From an uncultured Planctomycetia bacterium (GTDB taxonomy: Bacteria; Omnitrophota; Gorgyraeia; 1-14-0-20-64-10): a DNA stretch of 63,145 bases. A program made the translations under genes and the position numbers. The notes under the pieces are model-generated. The model did no database searches. It had not been told where the DNA came from and saw nothing but the letters and a program-made list of their open reading frames with translations. The stretch is from NCBI GenBank assembly GCA_964373715.1, contig CAYJVR010000007.1:26787-89931 (forward strand), in the 5' to 3' direction. Shown in pieces: positions 24,513 to 59,200 of this stretch. Each line of letters starts with the position of its first letter. Position 1 is the stretch's first letter.

Positions 24513-24587
24513 ATTTTCAGGTTTTTCCTCCTAACCTCAAGTAATATTACTAGTTAGGTTGTTCGGTTGCATTCGGGGGCGCAGACT

Positions 24588-25814
24588 ATGCAGCGGTTCC
24601 GCTACAAAGCCCGTAATATTGACGGGCGGAATATGTCCGGTGAAGTGGTGGCTATCAGCCGCGAGGAGGTCGCCAGCCGCCTTCAAGAGGCCGGCGTCTA
24701 TGTCCTCTCTGTCAAGCCGATCCGGTGGTCGAGATCCTTCCTGCGTTTCGGGCGCGGTTACATTCCTCAAGAAGATCTCCTTGTTTTCCTTGAATCATGG
24801 GCCATGTTTCTGGAAGCAGGCATTTCGATGCAGTCCTCTTTGCTGCGCCTGCGCATGCGATCCAGAGTTCCCGCTCTAGCGGAAGGGATCGAGGACATGA
24901 TGTTTGCCATTGACAGCGGCGCCTCTGTCGGGGAGGCTCTGAAAGCCAGCCAACTGCTGCCTTCTGCCTGGGTTTCCGTCGTTGAAATGGGTGAAACCAG
25001 CGGCAATTATACCGAGCCGCTGAAAATGCTCTGCAGGGACTGTCTTGATTTCCAAAAGTTCAAAAGGGAAATCCTTTACCATCTGATCATGCCGTTTGTT
25101 CTGTTGGTTGTCATGGGGGTTTGGTTCTGGATTCTTTTTAAGAAGGTCATCCCGAGCCTTGTCATTTTAATGGAGTCGACCGGCGGGACGGTGAAGGTGC
25201 CGGTTTGGATGACGGCGTTCCTCTCATGGGTGATGTCTTCAGTCCAGTGGCTGGTCCCTGCGGCAGGGTGTGTTCTGCTTTTCTTCTGTCTGTGGGTCCG
25301 GCAGATCAGCCAGCAGGGAGGCCTTTCCCAGCTGTGGATTCCCCATTCAACGCCGGTCTTAGGCCCGCTTGTGAAACAGCTGCAGCTGATCATGGTGGCC
25401 AAAAACCTCCAAATGCAGTTGGAAGCAGGCATTCCGTTTGCCAACGCGATTGAATCCATGATCGAGGGAATCAGGAACGAGAGGGTCCGGAGGGATTTAA
25501 TACAGCTCTATCGGAAACTCCGAGAGGGTGTGCCGATTCCGGAGGCGGTTTCCGGTTTTCAGCTGTTCTCGCAAATGGGGCAATCGTTGCTTGTTGCCGG
25601 CCATGAAAGCGGCAAGATGCCCGAAATGCTGGGGTGTCTTGTCCGGGAAAGCGAATCCGTCCTGATCGAGAACATCAAGCGCCTGACGATCTTCATCCAA
25701 ATGACCGTCATTATCAGTTGCGGCATCACGGTCGGTGCTGTCGTTATCATGTTCTTCTCGATCTTCTTCAGCGCCATAGGGTCTTTCGCCAACTCCGGCG
25801 TCCTCAACCGCTGA
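24588..25814 (+). CDS. type II secretion / type IV pilus platform protein (GspF/PilC family), orphan
   Basis: ATG 24588 gives MQRFRYKARNIDGRNMSGEVVAISREEVASRLQEAGVYVLSVKP, a typical GspF/PilC N-terminus. Two T2SSF-like halves with three or four TM helices. No other T2SS or T4P genes in the window. Confidence 0.7.
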   Translation: MQRFRYKARNIDGRNMSGEVVAISREEVASRLQEAGVYVLSVKPIRWSRSFLRFGRGYIPQEDLLVFLESWAMFLEAGISMQSSLLRLRMRSRVPALAEGIEDMMFAIDSGASVGEALKASQLLPSAWVSVVEMGETSGNYTEPLKMLCRDCLDFQKFKREILYHLIMPFVLLVVMGVWFWILFKKVIPSLVILMESTGGTVKVPVWMTAFLSWVMSSVQWLVPAAGCVLLFFCLWVRQISQQGGLSQLWIPHSTPVLGPLVKQLQLIMVAKNLQMQLEAGIPFANAIESMIEGIRNERVRRDLIQLYRKLREGVPIPEAVSGFQLFSQMGQSLLVAGHESGKMPEMLGCLVRESESVLIENIKRLTIFIQMTVIISCGITVGAVVIMFFSIFFSAIGSFANSGVLNR

Positions 25815-26893: not shown

Positions 26894-27091
26894 AGCAGTT
26901 TCAAGTTTAAGAGTTTATCAGTCCTGAGATTAAGATGTAAGATCGAATAGCAATAATCTTCCTGCCTGCCAATCCTGTTTAATCGTAAATAGATCTAGAT
27001 ATAGCTGCGTATTTTTATAGATTTCCAGCTATACTATAACTACAAACAAATATTCCCTGGATTTAAATTTGATTTTCGATTAACTAATCTC
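26894..27091 (+). promoter_or_regulatory. AT-rich non-coding leader/promoter region of giant ORF 1
   Basis: 198 bp of markedly AT-rich DNA in an otherwise GC-rich window. Contains tatact/tataac-type hexamers. No GGAGG-type SD before ATG 27092. Confidence 0.35.
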
Positions 27092-30000
27092 ATGAAGATA
27101 AAACCGATTGTGGCACGTGTTATAGAAAGAGGAATCAGAGGAGGTACTCTTCTGGTTTTTCTTACATCTTACTCTGTTTCTGAGCCGTACTTACTAGGCC
27201 GGGATACTCTTCGTCCTGAGCCAATTCGAGAAGCAACCGGATCTGGCCTAAAAGAACTAAGAGAAAGAATCTCTGAGGATACTGTCGCATTCAGAGCCGG
27301 CTTGGAGGAGGGTAGCTCTTTGCAAGATTTGATTCGAAACGCTGAAACTCTGTTGGGAGATCCGGCGCAAGAGGCGGTGACTCCGGAGAAAGCTCAATTG
27401 CTGGAACAGTTGATTCCTTGGGTCGAAAAGAAGCTACGGGAGCAGGAGAAAGTTGGATTGCTGCGCCCCACTCTCCAACTGATTGAGAGCGCGCAGTCTT
27501 TTAAGGCTGGGAATACCGTGTTTTTGCCTTTCGAGGCTGCCGACGCCGTTTTTATCACCGATTTGCACGGTGATCGCATCTCGTTCCAACAGATTCTTAC
27601 ACAGGTAAGCTACGATCCGGAGGCGAACAAAAAAGCTCTCCGTAAAAAATATCTGATATTGGGCGGAGATTATGTGGATGGAGGGCCGCGGAGTTTGGAC
27701 GTGCTGCTCAAAACTCTCACTCTTTATCTGCAAGATTCGAAGCATGTTGTTCTCATGGGCGGCAACATCGACCGCTATCGGCTGAAAACCGTAGAACAAG
27801 ACAAGTATCGATTTTTTCTGCAATTGAAAGAGCGATTAGGAACGAACGGTGAAGCTCTTTATAAGAAATGGCAAGAATTTGCCCGCCAATTTTTAGTGGC
27901 GGATGTCATTACAAAAAATGGCTTTGCCTTTGTGCACGCAGCTCCTCCCACCGATAAAGTCCAAGGATATGACCTCGAACGAGGTTTGGAATGGCTCTCT
28001 TTCAGTGATGAAGCGAAGCACGAAATGGCGACGAATTCGTTGCGGCGTCCGGGTTTACCCAATCTTAGCGATGGTTCCGATCAAGAAAACGAACAATACA
28101 GCCGGGATCTTCAAAGGGATTATGAAGGCCACCCTTCCAGCCGGGTTACCGGAATAGAAAGCATCCGAAAATTCGGAGAATTAACAGGGGCATCGGTTAT
28201 TCTTCGGGGGCATGACAGCGGTTCACCCCACGATAAAGCGCTGGTTGTCCCGGTGGAAGGGGGTAAAAAAATTACTGTCCTTACGGTGCATGCTTCCGTA
28301 ATAGGAAGCCCGGAAAGCGAAAAAGTTTATCCGAAAACGCCGAGATGCTACGCGGTAGTGAAGTTGGACCACAATTACACCACGATTGACCCGACCAGTA
28401 CCGATCCGACCGAACAAATTGTCTATCCTGTTTTACCAGACGCCGGCTTGGAGGAGAGCGATGAGGGGCCGCCACCGTCTGCTTTCTGGCCTGAAGAACA
28501 TTTCGAAAGGCTGAGTCAGCGGATTGCCCCGTATGTGACGCAGACTGCAACGGTTCCATTTACCTCTTGGGATGAATTAAAGGCCTACCTGAAACTCCAT
28601 AAAGCGGAATTAGAGCAAAGAAATCACGAGGCCTTAATTGCTTCTGGACAGATAAAGTCGACAGATCCCGTCACTCGGTTCGCGTATCAGACGTTCGTCA
28701 ATGCCTTCTCAGAAGGCGGTTGGGCAACCGGAGTGGGTCAGAATTGGCAGCGGGCCGCGGGGGCATTGGATTTAAGCGAGCGAATCGCGCCGGTTATCCA
28801 GTTTCCGAACGGACAGGCTTTTCCAACCTGGGAGGAGGTGGGGAATTATTTAAGAGATCACAAAGCGGATTTGGAACAACGCAATCATGAGGTTTTGGTT
28901 GTCTCTGGTAAGAAGAAGGCGACGGGTCTAGCGACCCCGGTTTCGTATCAAACCTTCATGCAAGCTTTTTATGAAGCGGGTTGGGTTATAGAAACTGAGC
29001 GGCAATGGATGTATGGGGGAGCTTTTGACCTGGCGGATAGGATTGCCAGCGCCATTCAGCTGCCGGACGGCAAACCATTCGAGAATTGGAACGCCTTAAG
29101 AGAATATCTCAGGGCCAACAAAACTGTTTTTGAAAGAAAGAATTACGAAGCTCAAGTGGTTTCCGGCCAGATAGATCCACAGGAACAAAAGACTCCAACG
29201 TTGTTAGCCTATACGACTCTCGTTTCAGCTTTTCAAGGGGGCGGTTGGGCAAGCTTGTCTCAAGTTTTAAGACGATCTGCGGGGGCTTTGGATCTCGCCC
29301 AGCGTCTTTCTCCGGTGGTTAAGCTTCCAGATAACAAACCTTTCAGTACGTGGGAAGAGGTTAAAGCGTATTTTATGGCCGACAAATCGATTTTGGAAAA
29401 ACAAAATCGGGAAGTCTTGCTCGCTACCAGCCCACTCAAGCCGAAAGACCGTTCTGTGCTATTGGCCTATTCAACCCTTTTGGAAGCTTTCCGAGAGGGA
29501 GGATGGGTGGAAATCCCGGAAGAAGAATACATAAGATGGAAACGGTCCTCTTCTTCTCTCAGTTTAGGGGAGCGGTTGGCGCCGATTGTTCAGTTACCCG
29601 ATGGTCAGCCGTTTTCAAATTGGGAGGATCTAAGGTCCTATTTGAAAGCTCATAAAGCCGATCTGGAGCGCCGGAATTATGAGGTCTTAAGTGCCTCCGG
29701 TCAGGTAGAAGCAGAAGATGCCCCAGGTCCTTTGTCATATACCACGCTTGCGTATGCGTTCGGCGAAGCCGGATTATTTAAGGGCAGTGACGAGGCGTAT
29801 TGGGCCGCTGGCGCTCTTGAACTATCGGAACGGCTTGCCCCGATTGTTCAACTTCCCAACGGTCAGCCGATAGCGACTTGGGAGGATTTGAAAGCTTACC
29901 TGAAAGCGAATAAGGCCAAACTGGAAAGGCAGAATCACGAAATATTAGTTGCTTCCGGGAAGGTAAAGCCGGGTGTTCCTGTTCATCCGCTTTCGTACAA

Positions 30001-32941
30001 CACGCTTGTTAATGCATTTCGGGAAGCAGGTTGGACACCCGCATCAACGACCTATGTGAACTGGGTTGCGAGTGCCGTTGATTTGGCAGAGAGAATCGCG
30101 CCGGCTGTTCAGCTTCCCAATGGCCAGCCGTTCGAGAGCTGGGAAGCCCTCAAAGCTTATTTGAAAGCCAACAAGAGCCGATTGGAAGAACGGAATCACG
30201 AAGTTTTAGTGGCCGCGGGTCAGGTGAAACCGACCGATCCTGTCGGATCTCTTTCGTATCTAACCCTCGTCAGTGCTTTCCAAGAAGGAAGTTGGGCAGT
30301 CGGCGTTGATTATAGCTGGCAACGGAATGCAGGTGGGTTCGATCTCAGCGAGCGGCTCGCGGCGGTCGTTCAGCTTCCCAATGGGCAGCCATTTGGAAGC
30401 TGGAAAGATTTAAAAGAATATTTCACGGCCAATAAGGTTGTTTTGGAAAGGCGGAATCACGAAATGTTGGTTACTTCCGGCCAATCTAAACAGGAGGCCT
30501 CTCCTCGTTCGTTGGCCTATGGTTCTCTGCTGCTTGCATTTCGGGAAGCGGGTTGGACGGGTGAAGAAGTGAAAGGTTGGTTTTGGGATGCGGGCTCACT
30601 TGATTTAGCAGAACGATTGCGGCCTGCCATTCAGCTTCCAGGAGGACAACCGTTTCAGACATGGGAGAGCTTTAAAGCATACCTTTTGGCGCACAAAGCG
30701 GAATTAGAAGCCCACAACCAGAGAGTGTTAGCTGAATTCGATCCTTCGGAATTGCAAGAAGAGGTTTCGGGCAGGTTGTCTTTTGGAACTCTTGTGGGCG
30801 CCGCGATTGAGGCTGAGTTGGTTCTGGGTGACCAAAGCTGGCTTCGGGCGGCAGGAGCCCTTGATTTAAGCGAAAGGATCGCCACGGTCGTCCAGCTTCC
30901 GAGCGGGAAACCATTTAAAACGTGGGAAGATCTCAAGGATTATCTTGTCGCGCATAAACAGGAGTTGGATCGAAAGAACTGGGAAGCGCTGGTGGATTTG
31001 GGACAAATCAAGTCGATCAATCCGATCCAGCCCATTTCGTACGCCACTCTTTATCAAGCTTTTCGAGAAGCAGGGTGGGCGATTCAAGTCAGCCAAGATT
31101 GGTTGCGCGCATCCGCCGGGTTAGATTTAAGCCAGCGGTTGGCGCCGATTGTTCATCTTCCCGATGGACAGCCCTTTAGAACGTGGGGAGATTTAAAGGT
31201 TTATCTTAAACCCCTCAAATTTGCGTTGGAGCAACGGAATCGAGAGGCATTGATCGGGTCCGGCCAGATGAAAACAGACAGCCCCAATCAGGCGCTTTCT
31301 TATGCGACGCTTTTCCAGGCGTTCCGAGAAGCCGGATGGGCAGTGGACGTAGACCAGGGCTGGTTGAGAGATTCCAGCTCGTTGGACTTGGCCGACCGCC
31401 TTTCTCCGTTGGTATTGCAAGACGAAGATCAAGTTCCTTTTTCGACCTGGCCGGAACTCAAGGCCTATCTGATAGCCAAAAAAGCCGATTTGGAACGGCA
31501 AAATACGCAAGCTTTACAAACGTTTGAAGAACCGAACGAAACGACGGTTGCAGGCCGGCTGGCGTACGCGACGCTTGTTGCTGCGTTCCAAGAGATTGGA
31601 TGGACGGCGAGAGTGGATGTCAACTGGAACCGGGCCGCGGGGGCATTGGATTTAAACGAGAGGATCGAAGGTTTTCTCGCGCTCCATCCGTTGCCGGAAC
31701 AGCCGGATTGGCCCGATGTTCGTCAATGGTATCTTGAGAACAGAGAAGGGTTGGCGCAGGCCAACTGGCAAGCTTTGAATCCAGAGACACCCCGTCCGGC
31801 CGATTACTATTTAGCTCCTGCCACAATAGGTTTTGCTCTTGTCGAAGCCGGCCATTTGCCTGAGACTTTGCGAAACGGAATCCATGAAAACGGTATTGAA
31901 TTGAACTATGCTTTGAACCATCAGAGAACATTAATCAGTCAATTGGGAGCTGCTCTTGACCAGCTGAATCCTGTAAATTTTCCAGTTGGACAAGAAAAGG
32001 AATTCGTTACGGCCGTAAAGAATTGGATGCATCCGGAGCTGCTTCTTAAAGTGACAAGTGAGGTTGAACAACAGGACGTCAACAGCCTCGCCGCTGCTTT
32101 CCAGGCGGGGAATCAAACTCCAGCCGGTGCCGCACGGGTGGCCGGGTTGACTGCGGCAAGGGCTCGAAAGCTATGGGGGTATGTCACCGGTGCGAAAACA
32201 TTTGTTCCTGTAACTTACGCAAACAACAGAGCTTTCCCGAAGCTCGTTACAGAATTAGTGGCCGTTCCTTACGCTCAGCCGGTGATAGCCGAGTGGCGAA
32301 GTGGCTTGGAAGAGACCCGAATTTCTGTGCTGGAGCGGAGCGCCATCTCTCGTTTGACGGCAGAACGGGGAATTTTTGAATGGGCGCGATCGTGGGCAGA
32401 GGTTGTCCGTTCCTTGGGAGGCGAACTTTACGATGGAATCATCAACGTCACGAATCCTGATCAACCTGCTTTGTCGAAATCATTCGATTTAACTCGTTCG
32501 TTAGAGGCGGATGGTCATGCTTTAGTTGTTCCAACGCTACCGGCTCAGGAGATAAAGCTCGTTCAGTCAGCCACTTTGTGGGTGCAAAAGGGGGTCCTCG
32601 TGCCTGCTGCGTGGAGGGAGTTTTTCCAAATCAGGGAATTGGCCGCTGAAGAGCCTGAACAAGCCGGGGAAGCTTTGAGGGAAGCCCGAGTAGGGGACGT
32701 TGTTCTGTTGAACGATGAATTCGTTACGGAAACCACTCAAGAAAACTGGGTAAATATCCTGAATGAGCGGGAACTTCTCGGGCTTCGCGTTCCGGCAGGG
32801 ATGAATTTGGAAACATACTCTGAGAAGGATTTGGCCACGCTGCTCATCGTTCTCGAGCGTTCCGGCATCCATTTTTATGATCTTTCCTCTCTTCATGCCG
32901 CCGATATCGAAGGCCAGCGGCAGTTACTCCTCTATCTGTAA
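27092..32941 (+). CDS. giant protein 1 (1949 aa): degenerate PPP/metallophosphoesterase-like head, 12-13 tandem ~87-aa repeats, unknown C-terminal region
   Basis: Single uninterrupted ORF. Head motifs are ITDLHGD, LGGDYVDGG, GGNIDR (in place of GNHE), FVHAAP and LRGHD. The repeat array is described separately. Three [A/S]GLEE motifs at 27296, 28442 and 32300. Confidence 0.85.
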   Translation: MKIKPIVARVIERGIRGGTLLVFLTSYSVSEPYLLGRDTLRPEPIREATGSGLKELRERISEDTVAFRAGLEEGSSLQDLIRNAETLLGDPAQEAVTPEKAQLLEQLIPWVEKKLREQEKVGLLRPTLQLIESAQSFKAGNTVFLPFEAADAVFITDLHGDRISFQQILTQVSYDPEANKKALRKKYLILGGDYVDGGPRSLDVLLKTLTLYLQDSKHVVLMGGNIDRYRLKTVEQDKYRFFLQLKERLGTNGEALYKKWQEFARQFLVADVITKNGFAFVHAAPPTDKVQGYDLERGLEWLSFSDEAKHEMATNSLRRPGLPNLSDGSDQENEQYSRDLQRDYEGHPSSRVTGIESIRKFGELTGASVILRGHDSGSPHDKALVVPVEGGKKITVLTVHASVIGSPESEKVYPKTPRCYAVVKLDHNYTTIDPTSTDPTEQIVYPVLPDAGLEESDEGPPPSAFWPEEHFERLSQRIAPYVTQTATVPFTSWDELKAYLKLHKAELEQRNHEALIASGQIKSTDPVTRFAYQTFVNAFSEGGWATGVGQNWQRAAGALDLSERIAPVIQFPNGQAFPTWEEVGNYLRDHKADLEQRNHEVLVVSGKKKATGLATPVSYQTFMQAFYEAGWVIETERQWMYGGAFDLADRIASAIQLPDGKPFENWNALREYLRANKTVFERKNYEAQVVSGQIDPQEQKTPTLLAYTTLVSAFQGGGWASLSQVLRRSAGALDLAQRLSPVVKLPDNKPFSTWEEVKAYFMADKSILEKQNREVLLATSPLKPKDRSVLLAYSTLLEAFREGGWVEIPEEEYIRWKRSSSSLSLGERLAPIVQLPDGQPFSNWEDLRSYLKAHKADLERRNYEVLSASGQVEAEDAPGPLSYTTLAYAFGEAGLFKGSDEAYWAAGALELSERLAPIVQLPNGQPIATWEDLKAYLKANKAKLERQNHEILVASGKVKPGVPVHPLSYNTLVNAFREAGWTPASTTYVNWVASAVDLAERIAPAVQLPNGQPFESWEALKAYLKANKSRLEERNHEVLVAAGQVKPTDPVGSLSYLTLVSAFQEGSWAVGVDYSWQRNAGGFDLSERLAAVVQLPNGQPFGSWKDLKEYFTANKVVLERRNHEMLVTSGQSKQEASPRSLAYGSLLLAFREAGWTGEEVKGWFWDAGSLDLAERLRPAIQLPGGQPFQTWESFKAYLLAHKAELEAHNQRVLAEFDPSELQEEVSGRLSFGTLVGAAIEAELVLGDQSWLRAAGALDLSERIATVVQLPSGKPFKTWEDLKDYLVAHKQELDRKNWEALVDLGQIKSINPIQPISYATLYQAFREAGWAIQVSQDWLRASAGLDLSQRLAPIVHLPDGQPFRTWGDLKVYLKPLKFALEQRNREALIGSGQMKTDSPNQALSYATLFQAFREAGWAVDVDQGWLRDSSSLDLADRLSPLVLQDEDQVPFSTWPELKAYLIAKKADLERQNTQALQTFEEPNETTVAGRLAYATLVAAFQEIGWTARVDVNWNRAAGALDLNERIEGFLALHPLPEQPDWPDVRQWYLENREGLAQANWQALNPETPRPADYYLAPATIGFALVEAGHLPETLRNGIHENGIELNYALNHQRTLISQLGAALDQLNPVNFPVGQEKEFVTAVKNWMHPELLLKVTSEVEQQDVNSLAAAFQAGNQTPAGAARVAGLTAARARKLWGYVTGAKTFVPVTYANNRAFPKLVTELVAVPYAQPVIAEWRSGLEETRISVLERSAISRLTAERGIFEWARSWAEVVRSLGGELYDGIINVTNPDQPALSKSFDLTRSLEADGHALVVPTLPAQEIKLVQSATLWVQKGVLVPAAWREFFQIRELAAEEPEQAGEALREARVGDVVLLNDEFVTETTQENWVNILNERELLGLRVPAGMNLETYSEKDLATLLIVLERSGIHFYDLSSLHAADIEGQRQLLLYL
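28495..31890 (+). repeat. in-frame tandem array, 12 units of about 262 bp plus a degenerate 13th
   Basis: Unit consensus: ALDLSERIAPVVQLPNGQPF.TWEDLKAYLKANKA.LERRNHEVLVASGQVKP.DP...LSY.TLV.AF.EAGWA......W.RAAG. Unit starts near 28495, 28763, 29021, 29285 and on to 31378, with the degenerate unit from 31643. Confidence 0.9.
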
Positions 32942-33169
32942 ATCCCTTTTATGAAGCGTTCCCATTACCATACCCGCAATGACGGTATACAAACGGTCTT
33001 GATGCCACTATTTCCCGGTTCCTGTTCTTGTTTTTCCCTCCTTGTTTTGCTAGACTAGCCTGTTGTTCTGCCGGTTAGTCTCGGTAAACGTTTCTTTTGA
33101 GACAGCAACAACTTAGGGGAAATCTACCCTCTTTTTTTTCGAACGGAGGGTTAAAGAAGGATTGCCCAG

Positions 33170-34360: not shown

Positions 34361-34663
34361 GTGAGCGCGAGGATTGCGATTGATCGGGAGAAGATAGCGG
34401 ATTTCTGCCGGCGGCATCACATTCGACGGCTGGCGCTCTTCGGCTCTGTTCTGCGCGATGATTTCCGGCCTGATAGTGACGTGGATGTCCTCGTCGAATT
34501 CGAGCCGGGTGCTACCGTTGGATTTCTCCGGTTAGCCGCAATGGAACTCGAACTGTCGGGCATTCTTGGTCGAAAGGGAGATCTAAGAACACCTGCGGAG
34601 TTGAGCCGGTATTTCCGAGATGAAGTACTGAAGGAAGCCGAGGTCCAGTATGTCGCGGCGTAA
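34361..34663 (+). CDS. nucleotidyltransferase-domain antitoxin (MNT/MntA-like)
   Basis: GTG start after aggaaggag. LALFGSVLRDDFRPDSDVDVLVEF is the GS..R...D.D minimal nucleotidyltransferase signature. Overlaps the downstream HEPN gene by 14 nt. Confidence 0.8.
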   Translation: MSARIAIDREKIADFCRRHHIRRLALFGSVLRDDFRPDSDVDVLVEFEPGATVGFLRLAAMELELSGILGRKGDLRTPAELSRYFRDEVLKEAEVQYVAA

Positions 34664-34985
34664 CGATGCTAACTTCCTACGCGATATGATTGATGCCGCT
34701 AAGGAGGCTCTCTCTTTCGCCCAGGGCAAGAAACGCAGCGACTTAGATGAGGACCGGAAGCTTGTGCTCTCCATCGTTCACTTGGTCGAGATTATCGGCG
34801 AGGCCGCGGACCATGTGAGCAGAGAGTTTCAGGAAGCCCATCCAGAGATCCCTTGGCCGGTCATCATCGGTATGCGGAACCGTTTGGCCCACGCCTACTT
34901 TGAGGTAGATCTGGACCGGGTTTGGGATACCGTGAAGGACGATCTTCTTCCTTTGATCTCTCAGTTGGAAGGGATTGTTAAATGA
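34650..34985 (+). CDS. HEPN/DUF86 (HepT-like) toxin
   Basis: IGMRNRLAHAYFEVD contains the Rx4-6H HEPN motif. Size about 110 aa. Paired with the upstream MNT gene. Confidence 0.8.
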   Translation: MSRRNDANFLRDMIDAAKEALSFAQGKKRSDLDEDRKLVLSIVHLVEIIGEAADHVSREFQEAHPEIPWPVIIGMRNRLAHAYFEVDLDRVWDTVKDDLLPLISQLEGIVK

Positions 34986-35467
34986 CCCGGCGCTTTCGCA
35001 ACCCGACACCTGCAAGCCGTCAATGCGATCGGGTGTTGAAACGGTTTCTTTCGGTTTGCCTTGCCTTCCTTATGTTCTTGGTTGCAGCGAATTGTTTTGC
35101 AGTTGAGGTAGCTGTCGAATGGCAAAGGAATGACGGCGTTTTTGATGGATTCATAGGAAAGCTGGAAATTGACATACAAAGCAAAGCTATGGCAGCTTCC
35201 GTCTTTGCAAAATCGGCCCATGGAGGTGTACAGGTTTACTCGCACCATTTTGAGATACTTGAAATTCAAGAGACGCTGGAAGGGCATTATCGCATTGGTT
35301 GCAGGAATGAAATGGGAGCGATGTTTTCGGGCCACGTCGATTTGAGTGATTCAGCCAAACCCGCAGTGAAGTTGTACGGACCCAACAACGTAGTCATCAC
35401 GAACATTTCTCGGGGTGGTAAGTGGTTCAAATTCTGGAATATTCGAAACGTATATTTGGGTCGATAG
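34982..35467 (+). CDS. hypothetical secreted protein
   Basis: ORF has an N-terminal hydrophobic signal-like segment FLSVCLAFLMFLVAANCFAVEV. Start overlaps the HEPN stop (aaATGAcc). No family recognised. Confidence 0.45.
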   Translation: MTRRFRNPTPASRQCDRVLKRFLSVCLAFLMFLVAANCFAVEVAVEWQRNDGVFDGFIGKLEIDIQSKAMAASVFAKSAHGGVQVYSHHFEILEIQETLEGHYRIGCRNEMGAMFSGHVDLSDSAKPAVKLYGPNNVVITNISRGGKWFKFWNIRNVYLGR

Positions 35468-35555
35468 ATTCAAGTGAACTTGTTGAGTAGGTACGTACCT
35501 TGTAACGGCCTTGGGAAGCAGACTCATTTGTAACGAAAGAGATGGGAGTTAGAGC

Positions 35556-35912
35556 ATGCTGAATATAACTTTAATAGGTCTCATTATCTTAGGGGTAATC
35601 TCTGCCACTCTGCTTGCATGCTTGCACTTGAGGTTATTCTCATTTGATGCGTTGGCCTCTTCTTCTGTTGCAGAGTTTATAAGTAGAAGCTTTCTGCATT
35701 GTCTCGTTATGGCTGGAGCCATTGCTTTGGCTGTCTTTGTTTTGTTGCAGCTAAGGGATAGGGAGATACCTCGTGGAACTCATGCTGGCGAAGGAGCGGG
35801 AGGCGCTATTAACAGGCGGTTTATTACTCCTGAGTTCTTTCGGAACTTAGTAGCGGCACTTATTGCGGCGGGTTATTTGGGTCTCGTCGTTATGTTTCTG
35901 AACAGAGTTTAA
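35556..35912 (+). CDS. hypothetical membrane protein
   Basis: Three or four hydrophobic helices. Preceded by gggagttagagc. No family recognised. Confidence 0.45.
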   Translation: MLNITLIGLIILGVISATLLACLHLRLFSFDALASSSVAEFISRSFLHCLVMAGAIALAVFVLLQLRDREIPRGTHAGEGAGGAINRRFITPEFFRNLVAALIAAGYLGLVVMFLNRV

Positions 35913-36130: not shown

Positions 36131-36208
36131 CGGGGCGTGGCTCAGCTTGGCTAGAGCGCTTGCATGGGGTGCAAGAGGTCCCGAGTTCAAATCTCGGCGC
36201 CCCGACCA
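36131..36208 (+). tRNA. tRNA-Pro (anticodon GGG), CCA encoded
   Basis: Cloverleaf read by hand: acceptor cggggcg/cgccccg, D arm gctc-agcttggcta-gagc, anticodon arm cttgc-atGGGgt-gcaag, variable loop aggtc, T arm ccgag-ttcaaat-ctcgg, discriminator a, then cca. Confidence 0.9.
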
Positions 36209-53134: not shown

Positions 53135-53228
53135 CAAGGTGATAGTTTGTAGTTAATAGTAAATATAGTTAATAATTTCTATTGAAAGACTCTGGTCTTT
53201 AAAGGTATACTTCCTATATATCCCGACC
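53135..53228 (+). promoter_or_regulatory. AT-rich leader/promoter region of giant ORF 2
   Basis: caaggtgatagtttgtagttaatagtaaatatagttaataatttctattgaaag.. is AT-rich, has no GGAGG before ATG 53229, and shares the 11-mer gtttgtagtta (inverted) with the giant ORF 1 leader. Confidence 0.35.
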
Positions 53229-56200
53229 ATGAAAACTGGACGATTTTTGCCAAGATTTATAGCGCTTTTACTAGCATTCTCGCTGAGTGTGCCGTCACCC
53301 TCCTTTGCTCTGCGTCCTCAACAGGCGCCGGAGAGCAGCGAAGGGCGGCGGCTCGCCATGCTTTTGCTTTCAGGCAGGTCTTCCGCCGGATTAGAAGAGG
53401 GGAGTTATGGATTTGGTTTGACCGAGCGGGAATGGGCCGGCCTCAAGTACCTGATGAAGGATCAGCTGCCGGATCCGAACGAACCCGGTGCCTTGAACGA
53501 TGTGCGGGGATATCTTGCCCAGCTCGTCCGTGAAGGCTATGGCCCCGAAGAACCCCTTTCCGTCGGAGATCGCCAGCTTGCCGAAAATCTTTCCCGCAGA
53601 TTAGGAGAGATCTCCCTCCAGCGGGCGAGAGAGGCTCCCGTGATGCGTCCTCAGCCGACGGCGACTCAAGCATCTGCCGGCACTCCAGGAACGGTTATTC
53701 CTCCCGGTGTCTATGATCCCTCTCAGCAGGGTCCCGCTCAGGGGATGGTGAAGATTGGGGAGGGTTATTTCAATAAGAAGACCGTTGTTCTAGGGGTTTT
53801 GGCCGTTGCCCTTCTGGGTATTGCGGGATATTTAGCTTTCGGTCCTTTCTGGAAAAAGGGGCCCGAGGATGTTAAAGAGCCGAAGCCCGGCATTGAGAAA
53901 AAAGATGCTCCTCAGAAGAAGCCGCTGAATAAAAGGGACGGCGGCTTAGAGGAAAAGGTCGGGGAACTCAATAAGCTGAGCCTTGAGGTTGTCAGGGGAT
54001 GGACACAGCTGGGCCGGCGGGCGCAGATTCTCGATATGAGGGGATTAGCGAACGCGGTTGGGGTTACAGAGCAGAAGATCCAGGTCCCGATCGTCCTTCC
54101 ACGGGAGGCCGAGAGGATTCTCACGGAGAACCGGACGGTTGTTCTTCAGGCGCTTCAGCCTCCGGCCGCCGGGCAATCCGATGTTCTCATTCTGCAGGAG
54201 ATCGCGTTAAACCCGGAAGACGAAAACGTCACGCAGGAAACGCTGTCTTCACAGCGTTCTTTCCTGAACAGACAGCTTGAAAGCATCGCCGCCTCCCGGT
54301 CGGGGGGGCAGGTCCGCCTCTCTTCATCCGCCAGAACCTTCGAGCAGATACGCCTCTTCTTAACACTGCATGATCCATGGGCGGTCATCGTTTCCATGCC
54401 GGGCGGTCAGCCGGCATGGACCTACCTGGATGCGCATATGGACGCGGACGGGAAGTTTGTGAAGATCGCGAACGATCTTCTCCCCGGCAAGCCAGGCGAC
54501 TACGATTACGACCTCACCCTATTGGACGGCGTCCTTTCTTTTGACATGGATATAGGAGGCGGTATTTACTCCCGTGTGGATGTTCCGCCGGGAAGACTCC
54601 AGGCGGTCATTATTGCCCGCCCCAAAAATAAATTCGGCGGGTTGGAAGAGAATGCCGTTTGGACCAAAAGGATTGATCAAGGGTTCGACGGAAAACGCCT
54701 TCTGCTGTTCGGTTGGAGCGGATTTGTGGGGGGGCGGTTGCTCCAGGATCTTTCACAGCGTGTGGGCAGCCGTGTTTCCCATATCACGGCGGTAAGCCGG
54801 ACTGCCGGCCCGGTTCCCGGCCCCGGTTCTCCTCTTTCGGGCAAGTTCACTCCGCGGGCGGGCGACCTGCTCCAGATCAGCTTCATCCGGCAGATCGTCA
54901 ATCCGTCCGGCAGATTCGATGTCCGGCCGGACAAGATCTTTATGCCCGCAGGACTCGCTTGGCAGCATCCGCCCTCTTTGGGGCGCCAGCCTACAGAAGC
55001 CGATCTGCAGGCGATTCTCGAAGAAGAACTTTTATTCAACGGTATGACCGTTTTAATGTTGAGCGCTGTGATGTCTGACCGGCAGCAGCTCATCGTGACC
55101 TCTTCCAACGCGATTGACGTTATGGTGAGTCAATTGCCGGAGGCTCAGCGGCCGGCGCTGCAACAGCAGGCAGTCGAGATGGCGCGCCGCTATCTGGCCG
55201 CTTGGGTGCCGGCCATTGAGAAGCAGCAGAACCCGACAGCGGACGAGTTGAGATCTTTTGTCCGCAAGGATCTCGAGCAATTTCCTCCCGCGGATCCGGC
55301 GTTTGTCCGCCGACTCAGCTATCCCTATTCGATGTTGCTGCGGGAAGAGATTTTGAAGTTGGCTGCCGAGAGATCGGGTAAAGAGATCCGTGTGCTGCGG
55401 ATCTCCGATGTCTACGGGCCGGGTCAGCCGCTTGGCCGGGCCGTCTTGAATCCGGACCGCTCGGCGCGCCGGCCACAGCGGTTTTTAGCGGCATTGCTCG
55501 AGAGTTCGACCGGCTGGACGGAGTGGATCAGCCAATACGGTTCCCGCGCTCATGGTTTTCAGATCGACGGACAGGGGCATCTGACCGTCGCCATTCGTAA
55601 CGACTGGGTCGCTCCCACTTATGTCGGAGATGTGACCCAGATGTTGATTCGCGCGGCGGTGGCTGACATTCCGAAAGAGCAGGTTGTTCTTGAAGTCAGC
55701 GCCCCTTGGATCTCCAACAGGCAGATGGTGGAAACGATCCGTGACGTTGTCAGCGAAACCGTCGGCCAGGCGGATGTCGTTATACAGACGCAGGGCGCTC
55801 GGCAAGAAAAGCCGGCGGCCCGAAGCCGGGATCTGCGGCGATTAGGATTGACGTCAGTATCGCTCACGCCGCTGGACCAAGGGCTGCGGAATTGGCTTAG
55901 CCTCGGCGCCGCTGGACTGGAAGAAGGGCTGAAGTTCGGCGATCCGATGGTGTGGAAAGACGAGCGCGAGAGGACGGAGAAGATCGTCCAGGGCGCAATC
56001 GATTTCCTCCGGCAGAGAGCGGAGGTCTACGGAGTGGCTTATCCGGCGCTTTTCTCCGCTGCGGTTGTTGATCCGAGAATCGAGCACCTGAACCGGATGT
56101 GGGAAGGCATCCAGGCCGACATGGCCGGCCAGCCGGTTGTCGTGAGCGTGAAGGATCTTTACGCCGTGAAGCCGGAGGTCCAGATCAAACGGTTCGGCCA

Positions 56201-59200
56201 GGTGATTTGGGGCGAGAGTCTAACCGCCCTTTCCTGGAAAGAGATTCCTTACAACATCGCCCAGTCCCTGCTTTTCAGCGAAGTGGCATGGGCCACCGGT
56301 TTCCTGGACGCTCCCGGCAATCCGCTCACCGATTTCTACAAGAAGACCCGTGACAAGCAGCAGGAAGATTCCCTGATCACCGCGCAGGGGGTCCCCACGC
56401 TTCCGGCGTACGTCCGGTTCGTGCTCGGCGGGTATTCCTTTGAACGGCTGCGCTCTCTTCCAAACCAGCAGAAACAGGACGTGCTCAAGCGGGCGCTGCT
56501 GCTGGTGCTCAAGGGCAACGCTTTGGACCCGAACGTGCTCGACAAGCTGAAAGTTAACGCGGATTTGTTGAGCCAGCAGCTCGCCGATCAAAGCAGTCTG
56601 ATTCTCAACGACACCGATGCGCTTGTGAATGCGCTGACTGATCCGTCGGTTCGGGAAACGGTTTTATTCCCGGACAATACCGGCGTCGAGATGATCGGCG
56701 CGACGCTGTTGACCGCAGTCTACCTCAGGATGTATCCGGCAAGGAAGGTGACATGGGGCGTGAAGGAAGCTCCCTATCTGAAGGTGGACGTGGCCCGGCG
56801 GGACTTGACCGGATGGGACACGGTTGTGGACCAGGTTGACGGCCGAAGCTGGCTGGCCCGTTTCCGGGACGGCAAGTACAATCCCGGCCAGGATCCCCAG
56901 GTTCAGCAGCTCTTCGATTTTATGGCTGGTGCGGTCGGTGAGCCGGGTCGCTTTGAGGTCATGAGCCATTCGTGGCTCGAGAGTGGTCTTTCGGGGAAGC
57001 AGATTCCGGCCGATTTAGCCGCCCGTGTCGGCGGACGAAGCCGGATTCTGATCGCCGATGGCGAATGGCTAAACGAGCGGTTTGCCAACGGCGTTCCTTA
57101 TCCGCAGGGGACCTCGTACGAGATGGCGTGGGGGTATCTCGGCGAGAAAGGGATCCAGCAGTTCGGCCTTCTGCGGATGATCAAGGACAAATTCATCGTC
57201 GTTATTCCTCCGGGGCGTGTTCCGGACGATTTCGAGGTGCTCGAAGGGGGAGTCCAGGGTCTTGTGAGCTTTGCCCGGTTTGAGGCCGGGTTGGAGGAGC
57301 CGACGCAGGAGCAGATCTCAGAACGGATTCGGGTCATGGGCGATGTTTCCTACGATCTTGCCACTGAAATATTCGAGATGAGCGAGAGACAGAATCGTCC
57401 TATTGCGGAGCTTCTGCAAAGTCAGCCGATTTTGGAGATGGTACTGCCCCTGTTTGACGCCGATAAACAACTTCGGAAATCCTTGAGGCGAGGCGGCCTT
57501 ACTGTTTCGGAAGTCGAGGAGTCGATTCAGCGGCTGATTGAAGGCCCGCAGCCGGAGACCCGGCTGCTGCTGGCGGAAACCGTTCTCAACGTCCTGGCGA
57601 TAAGACGTCAACACGGCGCCTCTTTGGACTATCCGGACATCCTAGCTGATTTCCGGACCTTAGCGAAAGGTGAAATCGCTGCGAATCAGGCGAGATACAG
57701 ACAGGTAGAACCATTAGTAGACATCTCCGCGCTGGCATTGATCGAATGGGCGAAAGTCAGCGTCGGACTTTTCCCCGCCGGGCTGGAGGAGCCGACGCAG
57801 GACCAGGTTCGGGCCGCGGCGCTGCAGATACTTCAGTCCCCGGAGACTCGCGGGGGGCGGTGGGTCTTGTTCATTCCTCAGTTGGACGCGTCGGTCCGTG
57901 ATGCGCTGATTGACGACACCCGCGCGGCGATTAACGCCAACCAGGCGGGGTGGATCTCTGGAGGATTGCTGACGAAAAAAGAGTTGAACCATCTGCGTGG
58001 CGACGTCAACACGGCGATCCAGAAAGCCAATTCTCAACTTGCAAGAGAGAGCAAAGAGAAGGCCAAAGTGAAAACCGAAGCGTCCCCCACGAGCCCGACG
58101 GCTTCTGCTCAGCCTCAAGTCCGTCAGCCGCCGGCCGCGCCGGTTGTTTCTTCGCCCGCCGTTTCAGTCCCTGCTCGTCCGGTGACCGGCTGGAACGCGG
58201 AGGTCGAGCGGGTGGTTGAGGCCGTCAGACAGGGCCGCCGGGGGTCCATCTTGCGGCTCCAGGACCACGACGTGGTCAACAGCCAGGAATTCCTCGATTT
58301 TGTTGATGAAATTATACGGCGCGGTGTTCCGGCGAACCGGATCGTTGTTTTGACCGAAGTCGGCAAACCCTCGACCCAGGCCCTGATCGAAAGCATGGGC
58401 AGGATGGGGATCCGGGACCAGGTCCTCCAGATTTTCCAATCCGGCGCGGCCTACCCGCTCATGCAGACCTACTTCGCCCGGGGCGGCCAGGTGCCGATCA
58501 ACCTGAGGGCCGTTTTTCCCGATCGACAAAGGCTCGACCTGATCCACGGGATGCACCGGCAGTTGTACCCCTTGTGGGAGAATTTGCTTGCCCGTGCCCG
58601 GCAGGGGGGCGTGACGAGCCCGTCTTCGGTCAACCAGATATCCAGAGGTCTTGCCGACAGGGGCGTCGGCCAAATTTGGGAGCGGTCCTCTCCGGCTTAC
58701 TGGTTTCTGGGTTTCTTTTCCGCTGTTTATGGGAATGCGATGGCGGACATTTATGTCCGGGGGGATGAGACGAGGGCCATTGCCGGCACTCAGGTTGATT
58801 TGGATACGAGGGAGTGGAGCACGAATGAGAGGGATGCGACCATCGCTGCCCAGTGGAATCAGATCATGGGCGACCTCCGGTCCGAAGGGTTTTTGATCCT
58901 GGGTGAGTTCGGCGGCATGCATGATTCCATCGTGGGCCGGCTTCAACCGGGAGAGATTCCTTTCGCGGTCAGCCGCAGCGAGGTTGCCTCTGGTATCGAC
59001 AACGATCCGTTCCTTGATCTTGCGCGGCGGCGGAACGAACAAGGGCGTTTGGGCCAGCCCTTCGACGTGGCCGATTTGCCTCTGGTCCAAAAGTTCCCGA
59101 TCTACAGCCGTCTGAAAGAACTCTGGGTCAGTCTCCCGAGGAGGGGTTTCCTCGGTGAGACTCGGGCTGCTCTCTCCGGCATCAAGGAAATACTTTCCGG

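What the first reader, a model, noticed from the sequence alone, without database searches (positions are those of the whole stretch)
27092..32941. Giant ORF 1: degenerate PPP-like phosphatase head fused to 12-13 copies of an unrecognised ~87-aa repeat, in a lower-GC segment
The head keeps metallophosphoesterase motifs I, II and V (DLHGD, GDYVDGG, RGHD). However, motif II has GG instead of RG, and motif III reads GNID instead of GNHE, so catalysis is uncertain. It is followed by an in-frame array of units with a period of about 262 bp. The conserved core is LPNGQPF.TWEDLKAYLKANK..LERRNHE.L....G......LSY.TL..AF.EAGW, which I cannot assign to any known domain family. Sampled 60-nt lines inside the gene look clearly less GC-rich than the flanking gpsA and BI-1 genes. 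The gene is preceded by 198 bp of AT-rich DNA without an SD. This suggests a separately acquired or differently constrained locus.
Basis: partly seen in the sequence, partly recalled or inferred. Interest (0 to 1): 0.75.

Follow-up and report, generated by a model that had tools for sequence, protein, structure and literature searches.

The report
Phosphatase fused to novel helical repeats
An uncultivated Omnitrophota bacterium carries an inserted 1949-residue gene that joins an unusual phosphatase-like head to thirteen copies of an undescribed 87-residue helical repeat, which is probably a binding rod on an exported protein.

Summary
ORF 27092..32941 (+) encodes 1949 aa. It has a PPP-type metallophosphoesterase head (Pfam Metallophos, E 6.7e-9) with GDYVDGG and GNID in place of GDxVDRG and GNHE. 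Twelve clear 86-90-aa repeats and one degenerate repeat follow.

The repeat matches no Pfam or NCBIfam family. AlphaFold models it confidently (pLDDT 93) as a three-helix unit, and Foldseek finds no relative in PDB or BFVD. A profile search of 1.84 billion representative proteins returned 21 hits, about 18 of them real and none that I looked up carrying a functional name.

The gene's GC3 is 0.50, against 0.59-0.83 for its housekeeping neighbours. In the closest relatives with readable synteny, gpsA abuts BI-1 or a toxin-antitoxin pair. The gene is therefore a lineage-specific insertion.

New findings:
- The host is an Omnitrophota bacterium.
- The array always ends in a conserved 215-aa cap module.
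- The protein is punctuated by G[LM]EE, a motif shared with other accessory, signal-peptide-bearing proteins of this clade, including a second giant ORF in the window.
- In a relative with near-identical repeats, almost all differences are nonsynonymous and cluster on helix α2.

Best reading: an exported modular protein whose array is a unit-by-unit ligand-binding rod that positions a non-canonical phosphatase. The function is inferred, not shown.

The parts
26894..27091 (+). AT-rich intergenic region (198 bp, 31% GC) upstream of the ORF. It has no Shine-Dalgarno sequence and one weak sigma-70-like site at 26930-26957.
27092..32941 (+). The whole ORF: 1949 aa, GC3 0.50. It is a lineage-specific insertion between gpsA and BI-1.
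27092..27298 (+). Leader, aa 1-69: a basic N-terminus, a short hydrophobic stretch (GGTLLVFLTSYSV) and TLRPEP. It resembles the 'signal peptide, then A|LR(Q/P)' leader of the clade's G[LM]EE proteins, but the hydrophobic stretch is weak.
27299..27310 (+). G[LM]EE junction motif 1 (RAGLEEGSS, aa 70-73).
27311..28444 (+). Phosphatase module, aa 74-451. The Pfam Metallophos match covers aa 153-375 (nt 27548-28216). Motif positions: I DLHGD 27560-27574; II GDYVDGG 27665-27685; III GNID 27761-27772; IV VHAAPP within 27929-27949; V RGHD 28205-28216.
28445..28456 (+). G[LM]EE junction motif 2 (DAGLEESDE, aa 452-455).
28514..31657 (+). Twelve canonical repeat units of 86-90 aa (aa 475-1522). Unit starts in nt: 28514, 28778, 29036, 29300, 29570, 29828, 30089, 30350, 30611, 30872, 31133, 31394. 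Each unit has helices α1 (about 25 aa), α2 (about 11 aa) and α3 (about 19 aa); α3 runs across the unit border.
31658..32302 (+). Cap module, aa 1523-1737. It consists of degenerate unit 13 and a conserved all-helical domain that contains a helix-turn-helix-like pair (TPAGAARVAGLTAARARKLW, nt 32117-32176). It is conserved in P0006, P0004, P0003, P0012 and P0005.
32303..32314 (+). G[LM]EE junction motif 3 (RSGLEETRI, aa 1738-1741). AlphaFold confidence collapses here.
32315..32938 (+). C-terminal domain, aa 1742-1949. It is acidic (pI 4.6 for aa 1738-1949), has no detectable homologue and gives a low-confidence model.
33115..33142 (+). Terminator-like hairpin followed by a T-run, between the ORF and BI-1. 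This is a consensus match only.

Best explanation
The gene encodes an accessory, probably exported, modular protein of an Omnitrophota bacterium. Three copies of the clade-specific junction motif G[LM]EE divide it into a leader, a PPP-type metallophosphoesterase, a helical repeat array with its cap, and an orphan acidic C-terminal domain.

The 12+1 units of 87 aa stack into a continuous, rigid all-helical rod, because helix α3 of each unit runs into the next unit. The rod is closed by a conserved 215-aa cap. The exposed face of the short helix α2 carries residues that differ from unit to unit. I propose that the array acts as a unit-by-unit binding surface for an extended, non-uniform ligand outside the cytoplasm. 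That ligand would most likely be a surface polymer or protein of a host or prey cell, or of the cell's own envelope.

The array would hold the phosphatase-like head at that target. The head keeps all six metal ligands but lacks the PPP general-acid His and the phosphate-binding Arg. It is therefore either a phosphoesterase with altered chemistry or substrate, or a metal- and phosphate-binding pseudoenzyme.

Shown: the anatomy, the rarity, the lack of known relatives, the insertion, and the variability pattern on α2. Inferred: export, the identity of the ligand, catalysis, and any processing at G[LM]EE.
For: Anatomy.

Rigid helical array: a two-unit AlphaFold model has pLDDT 93.2 and pTM 0.86, and one helix crosses the unit border.

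Array and cap travel together: the cap is conserved with BLASTP E 8e-50 (P0006), 7e-32 (P0004), 2e-24 (P0003) and 9e-9 (P0012). It is modelled at pLDDT 83-94 up to the SGLEE motif.

Binding face on α2:
- In the window's units, the columns x of Y-x-T-L-x-x-A-F-x-E have 2.1-2.9 bits of entropy, between invariant or near-invariant neighbours.
- P0007 has repeats that are 93-98% identical in DNA. Nine columns vary in amino acid within columns 1-72. Six of them lie in α2, and only one column shows synonymous variation. Binomial P is 4e-4.

Export:
- Relatives of the module and of the motif class have canonical signal peptides: P0006, P0010, ORF2 and the ORFs in L091, L092, L094 and L095.
- The protein has one Cys in 1949 aa.
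- Published surveys report that 94% of long Omnitrophota proteins carry a signal peptide or a transmembrane segment (bioRxiv 10.64898/2026.06.07.730766).

Head variant is conserved in P0002.

Phosphoesterase domains recur with these modules: PP2C and PHP in P0012, and an ARMT1-like phosphatase in ORF2.

The host is an Omnitrophota bacterium.
Against: - The N-terminal hydrophobic stretch of this protein is weak (maximum Kyte-Doolittle 19-residue mean 1.22) and its cleavage site is not canonical. Export is argued by analogy.
- No ligand is identified, and no operon partner gives a clue. Homologues sit among housekeeping genes.
- Variability of exposed helix positions in the window's old, diverged units is also what neutral drift gives. 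The selection signal comes from a distant family member whose near-identical repeats could be imperfectly assembled.
- The AlphaFold alignment consisted only of paralogous units from the same protein.
- Loss of the general-acid His and of the Arg may mean there is no phosphatase activity at all.
Confidence: 0.45

Rival explanations
1. Polyprotein precursor. G[LM]EE marks sites where a protease, or self-cleavage, cuts the product into separate proteins: the phosphatase, the array with cap, and the C-terminal domain. These would then act independently, so the fusion says little about a joint function. This rival can coexist with the best explanation.
For: - G[LM]EE occurs 3 times here (0.12 expected, P 2e-4) and 8 times in ORF2 (0.18 expected, P 2e-11). 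It occurs once in 14,138 aa of the other genes.
- It falls at module borders, including the exact residue where AlphaFold confidence collapses.
- It recurs just after the signal peptide and between segments in accessory ORFs of four related genomes.
- A different lineage uses another punctuation motif, EGASPE[WF], six times between its PHP/GNAT, repeat and PP2C modules.
- West-Roberts et al. proposed post-translational cleavage of giant Omnitrophota proteins and stated that cleavage points were unknown (bioRxiv 10.1101/2023.11.21.568195).
Against: No cognate protease was identified in the window or in any locus examined. A conserved short motif at domain borders can equally be a structural linker, a modification site or a sorting signal. 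No proteomic evidence is available.
Confidence: 0.3
2. Passive spacer. The array is a stiff stalk, comparable in role to the three-helix rods of staphylococcal Ebh or of spectrin. It only sets the distance between the head and the C-terminal domain or the cell surface and has no ligand specificity of its own.
For: A continuous helix crosses unit borders and inter-unit confidence is high. The array is acidic and carries no obvious charged binding stripe. Copy number is fixed at 13 in three independent assemblies.
Against: Nonsynonymous changes concentrate on one helix face in P0007. The polar residues K30, E34 and N37 on α1 are invariant or nearly so. P0010, a small protein with a predicted signal peptide, consists of only two units; its record is partial. 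A spacer does not predict these features.
Confidence: 0.2
3. Modular nucleic-acid reader. Each unit would contact one or a few nucleotides through variable α2 residues, as PPR, PUF or TALE repeats do. The protein would be delivered into another cell.
For: - The wider-family profile aligns with the PPR helix-a motif: hhalign probability 93% over 20 columns.
- Designer PPRs top the PDB sequence search, and a PLS-PPR tops Foldseek.
- The aligned column at PPR position 5 is one of the most variable.
- The cap holds a helix-turn-helix-like pair, and weak MarR-type Foldseek matches were seen.
Against: - Each PPR stretch scores only about 6 bits (i-E about 100), and the summed E-value comes from identical designed repeats.
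- No Pfam PPR or TPR hit.
- Foldseek TM-score is 0.19 and E is 0.64.
- The unit is 87 aa with three helices, not 35 aa with two.
- The array is acidic: pI 5.4, net charge -21.
- Family members carry Sec-type signal peptides.
Confidence: 0.08
4. Not a working gene: an assembly chimera, or a decaying foreign remnant whose phosphatase is dead and whose repeats have no function.
For: Atypical GC3, no Shine-Dalgarno sequence, a deviant catalytic motif and an orphan C-terminus.
Against: - A 5.85-kb frame is open in a 51% GC sequence.
- The identical protein occurs in three assemblies.
- Synonymous sites between units are saturated while the helix core positions stay invariant. This indicates long purifying selection.
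- The head variant is conserved at 48-50% identity in P0002.
Confidence: 0.03

Closest known systems
PPP-family Ser/Thr phosphatases (PP1, BSU1, RdgC) within the calcineurin-like metallophosphoesterase superfamily, Pfam PF00149
   Same: The head matches PF00149 above the curated cut-off. It aligns with BSU1, RdgC and PP1 over motifs I-III. It keeps D and H of motif I, both D of motif II, N of motif III, and the His of motifs IV and V.
   Different: The Arg of GDxVDRG is Gly, and the general-acid His of GNHE is Ile (GNID). Both changes are conserved in the only homologue. From my own knowledge, not tested here: other metallophosphoesterases lack this His yet are active, for example the LpxH type with GNRD and the YfcE type with GNCD.
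Pentatricopeptide (PPR) and TPR-type helical hairpin repeats
   Same: Both are all-helical tandem repeats. The loop and α2 segment (..lSYxTLvxALxxaG..) aligns with PPR helix a at hhalign probability 93% over 20 columns. A TPR protein (P0015) was a weak hit to positions 45-85 of the profile. The variable residues lie on the short helix.
   Different: The unit is 87 aa with three helices of 25, 11 and 19 residues, against 34-35 aa with two. There is no Pfam PPR or TPR match. Foldseek TM-score is 0.19. Only one helix is similar, so common ancestry is not shown.
Three-helix rod repeats of giant surface or cytoskeletal proteins (staphylococcal Ebh FIVAR-GA modules, spectrin repeats). This comparison is from my own knowledge.
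   Same: Tandem three-helix units whose last helix continues into the next unit, giving a long stiff rod within a very large protein.
   Different: No sequence or Foldseek match to any such structure. Helix lengths and unit size differ. The host is an Omnitrophota bacterium, not a Firmicute.
Giant multi-domain proteins of Omnitrophota (West-Roberts et al., bioRxiv 10.1101/2023.11.21.568195; Nielsen and Lui, bioRxiv 10.64898/2026.06.07.730766)
   Same: Same phylum. Both are long accessory proteins that combine enzymatic domains, including Ser/Thr phosphatases, with large unannotated repetitive regions. They are mostly exported or membrane-bound, and cleavage into several products has been proposed.
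   Different: At 1949 aa this protein is far below those papers' size range. Term searches of the two papers found no mention of a junction motif, a polyprotein or helical repeats.
Phage Mu transposase Iγ DNA-binding subdomain (PDB 2ezh)
   Same: Best PDB sequence hit of the 13-unit profile (E 0.09). Pairwise hhalign probability is 71% over 46 columns.
   Different: With the 51-unit family profile the match collapses to probability 2%, and it disappears from the PDB search. Rejected as a relative.

Membership tests
Calcineurin-like metallophosphoesterase superfamily (Pfam PF00149) | Profile match above the curated gathering score | tested here: met
   36.9 bits against a 21.5-bit cut-off, E 6.7e-9, aa 153-375
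Calcineurin-like metallophosphoesterase superfamily (Pfam PF00149) | Metal-ligand set: D-x-H (I), G-D (II), G-N (III), H (IV), G-H (V) | tested here: met
   D157 and H159, D193, N225, H282 and H374 are present. Assignment of motif IV rests on position and on conservation in P0002.
PPP Ser/Thr phosphatases (PP1, PP2A, calcineurin type) | GDxVDRG with the phosphate-binding Arg | tested here: not met
   The motif reads GDYVDGG. P0002 has GDFVDGG.
PPP Ser/Thr phosphatases (PP1, PP2A, calcineurin type) | GNHE with the general-acid His | tested here: not met
   The motif reads GNID, aligned to GNHE of BSU1. It is conserved as GNIDR in P0002.
PPP Ser/Thr phosphatases (PP1, PP2A, calcineurin type) | Phosphomonoesterase activity on phosphoproteins | not testable with these tools
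   Needs an enzyme assay
PPR / TPR helical hairpin repeats | 34-35-aa two-helix unit recognised by the Pfam PPR or TPR models | tested here: not met
   No PPR or TPR family at E <= 1 for the protein, or at E <= 10 for single units. The unit is 87 aa with three helices.
PPR / TPR helical hairpin repeats | Structural superposition on a PPR or TPR solenoid | tested here: not met
   Best Foldseek hit is 5iww_D with E 0.64 and TM-score 0.19
TALE-like repeat-variable-residue arrays | 33-35-aa near-identical repeats with two hypervariable residues that contact DNA | tested here: not met
   Units are 87 aa and 45% identical, and the array is acidic. Only the concept of repeat-variable positions is shared, and that is seen in relative P0007.
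Mu transposase Iγ-type helix-turn-helix domain | Profile similarity that holds up when family diversity is added | tested here: not met
   Probability is 71% with A2 and 2% with A6
G[LM]EE-punctuated accessory proteins of this Omnitrophota clade (a class proposed here, not a curated family) | Significant excess of G[LM]EE, placed at module borders | tested here: met
   3 observed against 0.12 expected, P 2e-4. The motifs stand after the leader, after the phosphatase, and at the cap/CTD border where pLDDT collapses.
G[LM]EE-punctuated accessory proteins of this Omnitrophota clade (a class proposed here, not a curated family) | Canonical signal peptide followed by A|LR(Q/P)xGLEE | tested here: inconclusive
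   Relatives show it clearly. This protein has only a weak hydrophobic stretch, then TLRPEP, with AGLEE 27 residues after TLRPEP.
Giant Omnitrophota proteins (as in the cited preprints) | Length of about 10,000 aa or more | tested here: not met
   1949 aa

The most novel reading that the evidence does not exclude
The 71-90-aa unit is a new kind of 'coded' repeat. Each unit would read one element of a linear ligand through three or four repeat-variable residues on helix α2, as TALE, PPR and PUF repeats read nucleic acids, but with a new fold and possibly a non-nucleic-acid polymer. In addition, G[LM]EE, and EGASPE[WF] in another lineage, would be the processing or junction signal of modular and giant Omnitrophota proteins, whose cleavage points have been reported as unknown.
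Probability: 0.15. Interest if true: 0.85.

Novelty: new variant of a known kind. Interest (0 to 1): 0.6.

Why it matters
Omnitrophota are abundant, mostly uncultivated nanobacteria. Many appear to live on or prey upon other cells, and their long accessory proteins are thought to mediate that contact, yet these proteins are almost entirely unannotated.

This gene supplies three things:
- A cleanly delimited, confidently modelled new helical repeat with no sequence or structural relatives.
- A hint from diversifying selection about where the repeat binds its ligand.
- A short punctuation motif that separates modules in several proteins of the clade.

If the motif marks cleavage sites, it would give a rule for cutting very long Omnitrophota proteins into units that can be analysed. 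The published work says this information is missing. If the repeat reads a polymer unit by unit, it would be a new scaffold for engineered recognition.

The conserved loss of the general-acid His in a PPP-type head is also a tidy test case for non-canonical metallophosphoesterase chemistry.

Tried and rejected
1. Tandem Repeats Finder on the DNA found nothing. The copies are too diverged, so the repeats were delimited at the protein level.

2. The Pfam 'hits' of the whole protein to Peptidase_M29, MBD, LysC, Hormone_3 and PSD2 have no single stretch that passes. They are sums over repeats and were rejected.

3. The Mu transposase Iγ lead was rejected after the wider profile removed it.

4. The designer-PPR E-values of 1e-20 were rejected as evidence of homology. 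They are sums of about 6-bit matches to identical designed repeats. Only a one-helix similarity is retained.

5. P0008, P0015 (a TPR/NB-ARC protein) and P0022 from the representative search dropped out on local iteration. P0021 kept only one partial match.

6. Searches that added little or nothing:
- The search for homologous proteins with the whole protein gave only itself and P0002.
- The same tool with the C-terminal alignment gave only P0004, because the word index limits it.
- The GTDB species-representative scan with the protein found nothing.
- The JGI metagenome scan with the head alignment found only P0002's contig.
- The IMG/VR scan found nothing, so there is no sign of phage origin.

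7. LepA placed the organism only vaguely: 71% identity to a metagenome-assembled genome (MAG) labelled Planctomycetia. ValS gave the Omnitrophota assignment.

8. Gene neighbourhoods of homologues showed housekeeping or unknown genes and no recurrent partner.

9. The AlphaFold model of the last 210 aa was unusable, with pLDDT about 30-50. Foldseek of the cap found nothing significant.

10. Literature searches for the motif string and for processing of Omnitrophota proteins found no prior description.
Full report
**1. What is in the sequence**

Window 27092..32941 (+) is one ATG-started ORF of 1949 aa. It is the longest complete ORF in the window. A second, still longer frame (53169..63143) runs off the window's end.

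Pfam finds one genuine domain, the calcineurin-like metallophosphoesterase PF00149, at aa 153-375 (E 6.7e-9, 36.9 bits against a cut-off of 21.5). The other Pfam lines in that output have no single passing stretch and are sums over repeats.

- DLHGD, aa 157-161
- GDYVDGG, aa 192-198
- GNID, aa 224-227
- VHAAPP, aa 281-286
- RGHD, aa 372-375

Against PDB sequences the head aligns best with the PPP enzymes BSU1, RdgC and PP1 over motifs I-III. GDYVDGG lies opposite GDYVDRG, and GNID opposite GNHE.

**2. The repeats**

After aa 475 the protein consists of 13 in-frame units. They start at aa 475, 563, 649, 737, 827, 913, 1000, 1087, 1174, 1261, 1348, 1435 and 1523 and are 86-90 aa long.

- Units 1-12 are on average 45% identical in protein and 53% in DNA.
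- Where two units share an amino acid they use the same codon only 44% of the time, so synonymous sites are saturated.
- The copies are therefore old. They are not being homogenised, and neighbours are no more alike than distant units.
- This explains why Tandem Repeats Finder sees nothing.
- Two of the more divergent units still align with BLASTP E 1e-15.
- Unit 13 is degenerate, at 19-26% identity.
- A family HMM run over all six frames of the window finds the repeat only in this gene.

**3. Composition and acquisition**

The gene's GC is 0.507 and its GC3 is 0.50. Its GC1 and GC2 are ordinary. The larger surrounding genes have GC3 of 0.59-0.83 (gpsA 0.746, BI-1 0.787). The low GC3 is even across head, array, cap and C-terminus. 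The 198-bp upstream spacer is 31% GC and has no Shine-Dalgarno sequence.

The window is a housekeeping stretch of chromosome: trpE, lepA, der, plsY, gpsA, hom, cimA, valS, uvrB. ValS is 77%, 73% and 68% identical to proteins that NCBI names as Candidatus Omnitrophica/Omnitrophota. One repeat-family member is also an NCBI Omnitrophota protein. The organism is therefore an Omnitrophota bacterium, and GTDB's species representatives hold no copy of the gene.

Synteny with the closest relatives settles the question of acquisition:
- In L093 (ValS 74%), gpsA is followed 10 bp later by BI-1.
- In L091 (ValS 77%), gpsA is followed by the same MNT/HepT pair and small ORFs that lie downstream of BI-1 in the window.
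- Neither carries this gene.

The ORF is thus an insertion between gpsA and BI-1 in a stretch (gpsA to hom) that also varies in toxin-antitoxin and ankyrin genes.

One caution applies. GC3 lower than the housekeeping neighbours is shared by the corresponding accessory genes in every genome I could check except the very AT-rich L087. It marks the class and is not a timestamp of transfer.

The identical 1949-aa protein, in the same context, occurs in two further independent assemblies. This excludes an assembly artefact and shows a stable copy number of 13.

**4. How rare and how unrecognised the repeat is**

No Pfam or NCBIfam family matches the units.

A profile of the 13 units was searched with HMMER against 1.84 billion representative proteins and found 21 proteins at E <= 0.001. 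Local iteration kept 18 of them with full-length units and gave 112 units in all. P0008, P0015 (a TPR/NB-ARC protein) and P0022 dropped out, and P0021 kept only one partial match.

- Six proteins have the 87-aa form of the unit: P0003, P0004, P0005, P0006, P0010 and P0012.
- The rest form a wider family with 71-81-aa units and the same helix pattern.
- Of the ten I looked up, the two that carry a name are called 'hypothetical protein'.

**5. Structure**

AlphaFold2 on two adjacent units, using the twelve unit pairs as the alignment, gives pLDDT 93.2 and pTM 0.86. Each unit has a 25-residue helix α1, an 11-residue helix α2 and a 19-residue helix α3. Helix α3 crosses the unit border, which implies a continuous rod and not beads on a string. 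The alignment consists only of paralogous units, which is a caveat.

Foldseek finds nothing in PDB (best E 0.64, TM-score 0.19) or in BFVD.

Two sequence leads were followed.
- The 13-unit profile weakly hit the Mu transposase Iγ subdomain (E 0.09; hhalign probability 71%). With the 51-unit family profile this fell to 2%, and the hit vanished from the PDB search. I reject it.
- The family profile instead brought up designer PPR proteins with total E about 1e-20. Each stretch scores only about 6 bits, and the total is a sum over identical designed repeats. A direct hhalign gives 93% probability over 20 columns, covering the loop and α2 (..lSYxTLvxALxxaG..) against PPR helix a.

I take this as a one-helix resemblance to helical hairpin repeats. 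It is not membership: no Pfam PPR or TPR model matches, and the unit has three helices in 87 aa.

**6. The cap and the C-terminus**

Unit 13 and the next 130 aa or so (aa 1523-1737) form a module conserved wherever the 87-aa repeat occurs. BLASTP E-values are 8e-50 (P0006, which has two copies), 7e-32 (P0004), 2e-24 (P0003), 9e-9 (P0012) and 2.5e-5 (P0005).

AlphaFold models the cap at pLDDT 83-94 as all-helical, with a helix-turn-helix-like pair. Confidence collapses at residue 1738, which is the SGLEE motif. Foldseek gives only insignificant MarR-type matches.

The last 210 aa are acidic, have no homologue and could not be modelled.

**7. The punctuation motif**

G[LM]EE occurs at aa 70, 452 and 1738, which is after the leader, after the phosphatase and after the cap.

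| Sequence | Length | Observed | Expected | P |
|---|---|---|---|---|
| This ORF | 1949 aa | 3 | 0.12 | 2e-4 |
| Second giant ORF | 3306 aa | 8 | 0.18 | 2e-11 |
| Other genes of the window | 14,138 aa | 1 | 0.58 | 0.44 |

(All.)

P0002, P0004 and P0006 also carry the motif. In four related genomes, the accessory ORFs inserted among the same housekeeping genes carry a canonical signal peptide followed by G[LM]EE within about 60 residues. Three of them read '...A|LR(Q/P)TGLEES' directly after the signal peptide, and most carry further [AG]G[LM]EE motifs.

A more distant giant protein with the repeat, P0012, uses EGASPE[WF] six times. These sites separate its PHP/GNAT, repeat-plus-cap and PP2C modules.

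West-Roberts et al. proposed that giant Omnitrophota proteins are cleaved after translation and noted that cleavage points were unknown. Term searches in that preprint and in a 2026 survey found no mention of such a motif, and further library searches found none either. Whether the motif is a cleavage site, a linker or a sorting signal is not shown here.

**8. Where the array may bind**

Within the helices of the window's units, the most variable columns are the x positions of Y-x-T-L-x-x-A-F-x-E on α2 (2.1-2.9 bits). They lie between invariant or nearly invariant Y, T, L, A, F and E. In old repeats, drift could produce this.

P0007 gives a sharper test, because its five 79-aa units are 93-98% identical in DNA. 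Within columns 1-72, nine columns differ in amino acid. Six of them lie in α2, at the equivalent positions, and only one column shows any synonymous difference. Binomial P for the clustering is 4e-4. This is the signature of diversifying selection on one helix face, and it points to α2 as a ligand-contact surface tuned unit by unit.

The array is acidic (pI 5.4, net charge -21), and family members carry Sec signal peptides. Both facts argue against a nucleic-acid ligand and for an extracytoplasmic one.

**9. Most likely mechanism**

I read the gene as an accessory, probably exported, modular protein. A rigid helical array with its cap binds an extended target through α2. It thereby positions a PPP-derived metallophosphoesterase that keeps its metal site but lacks the usual general acid and phosphate-binding Arg.

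That head variant is conserved in P0002 at 48-50% identity, so it is maintained by selection. Phosphoesterase domains recur in this class: PP2C and PHP in P0012 and an ARMT1-like domain in ORF2.

- Shown: the anatomy, the insertion, the rarity, the absence of known relatives, and the variability pattern on α2.
- Inferred: export (this protein's own hydrophobic stretch is weak), the nature of the ligand, catalysis, and processing at G[LM]EE.

Confidence in this mechanism is about 0.45. The rivals are processing into independent proteins (compatible with the above, 0.3), a passive spacer (0.2), a PPR/TALE-like nucleic-acid reader (0.08) and a dead gene or artefact (0.03).

**10. Verdict**

The head is a new variant of a known enzyme family. 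The repeat with its cap is an undescribed helical repeat family confined, as far as can be seen, to a handful of uncultivated bacteria. The punctuation motif is a new lead on how modular Omnitrophota proteins are organised.

Interest is 0.6. The finding is clearly new and well delimited, but its function is still inferred.

Noticed in passing
window 53169..63143 (+), likely start ATG at 53226: A second giant ORF of more than 3300 aa runs off the end of the window. It has a canonical signal peptide (..PSFA|LRPQQ..) and eight G[LM]EE motifs between segments. Its only Pfam domain is an ARMT1-like damage-control phosphatase (aa 1076-1195). The same chromosomal slot, after a DUF2062 gene, holds a long unannotated ORF in relatives L091 and L095 and is empty in L093 and L094.
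   Followed up: partly
L094 853-3126 and 3803-5893; L095 19524-22589; L092 6543-10757; L091 20368-22727: Accessory ORFs inserted among housekeeping genes in related Omnitrophota genomes carry a canonical signal peptide followed by G[LM]EE within about 60 residues. Three of them read 'A|LR(Q/P)TGLEES' directly after the signal peptide. Most have further [AG]G[LM]EE motifs, and all have lower GC3 than their neighbours. This looks like a clade-wide class of exported proteins that share a leader and a junction signal.
   Followed up: partly
P0012 (locus L089 10001-18901): This 2966-aa protein has PHP, GNAT and PP2C domains plus two or three of the repeats and the cap. It is punctuated six times by a different motif, EGASPE[WF], at aa 383, 582, 1257, 1689, 1980 and 2549. 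This suggests that lineage-specific junction motifs are a general feature of these modular proteins.
   Followed up: partly
window 34361..35912 and 36131..36208: Downstream of BI-1 lie an MNT (nucleotidyltransferase) / HepT toxin-antitoxin pair (34361-34663, 34650-34985) and two small unknown ORFs with very low GC3 (0.49 and 0.42). They sit next to tRNA-Pro(GGG). The gpsA-to-hom interval is a variable hotspot, and relatives carry other TA genes or an ankyrin protein there.
   Followed up: partly
P0005 (4413 aa, JGI contig of 13.7 kb): This protein contains five super-repeats of about 475 aa, shown by motifs FCRTW, DPELS and IGVDS recurring every 474-476 residues. Each super-repeat includes two units of the helical repeat, so the unit can be embedded in a higher-order repeat.
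   Followed up: no
P0007, P0009, P0011, P0013, P0014, P0016-P0020: A wider family of proteins has 4-11 units of 71-81 aa, related to the window's repeat, and its own conserved N- and C-terminal regions. Those whose N-termini I read (P0007, P0009, P0013, P0014, P0020) show no obvious signal peptide. P0020 sits next to LPS-heptose and Lpt genes in an unidentified Gram-negative bacterium (L096). Function is unknown.
   Followed up: partly
window 24567..25814: A T2SS-F / PilC-type inner-membrane platform gene lies between plsY and gpsA. It is conserved at this position in relatives with and without the giant gene, so it is not specifically linked to it.
   Followed up: partly
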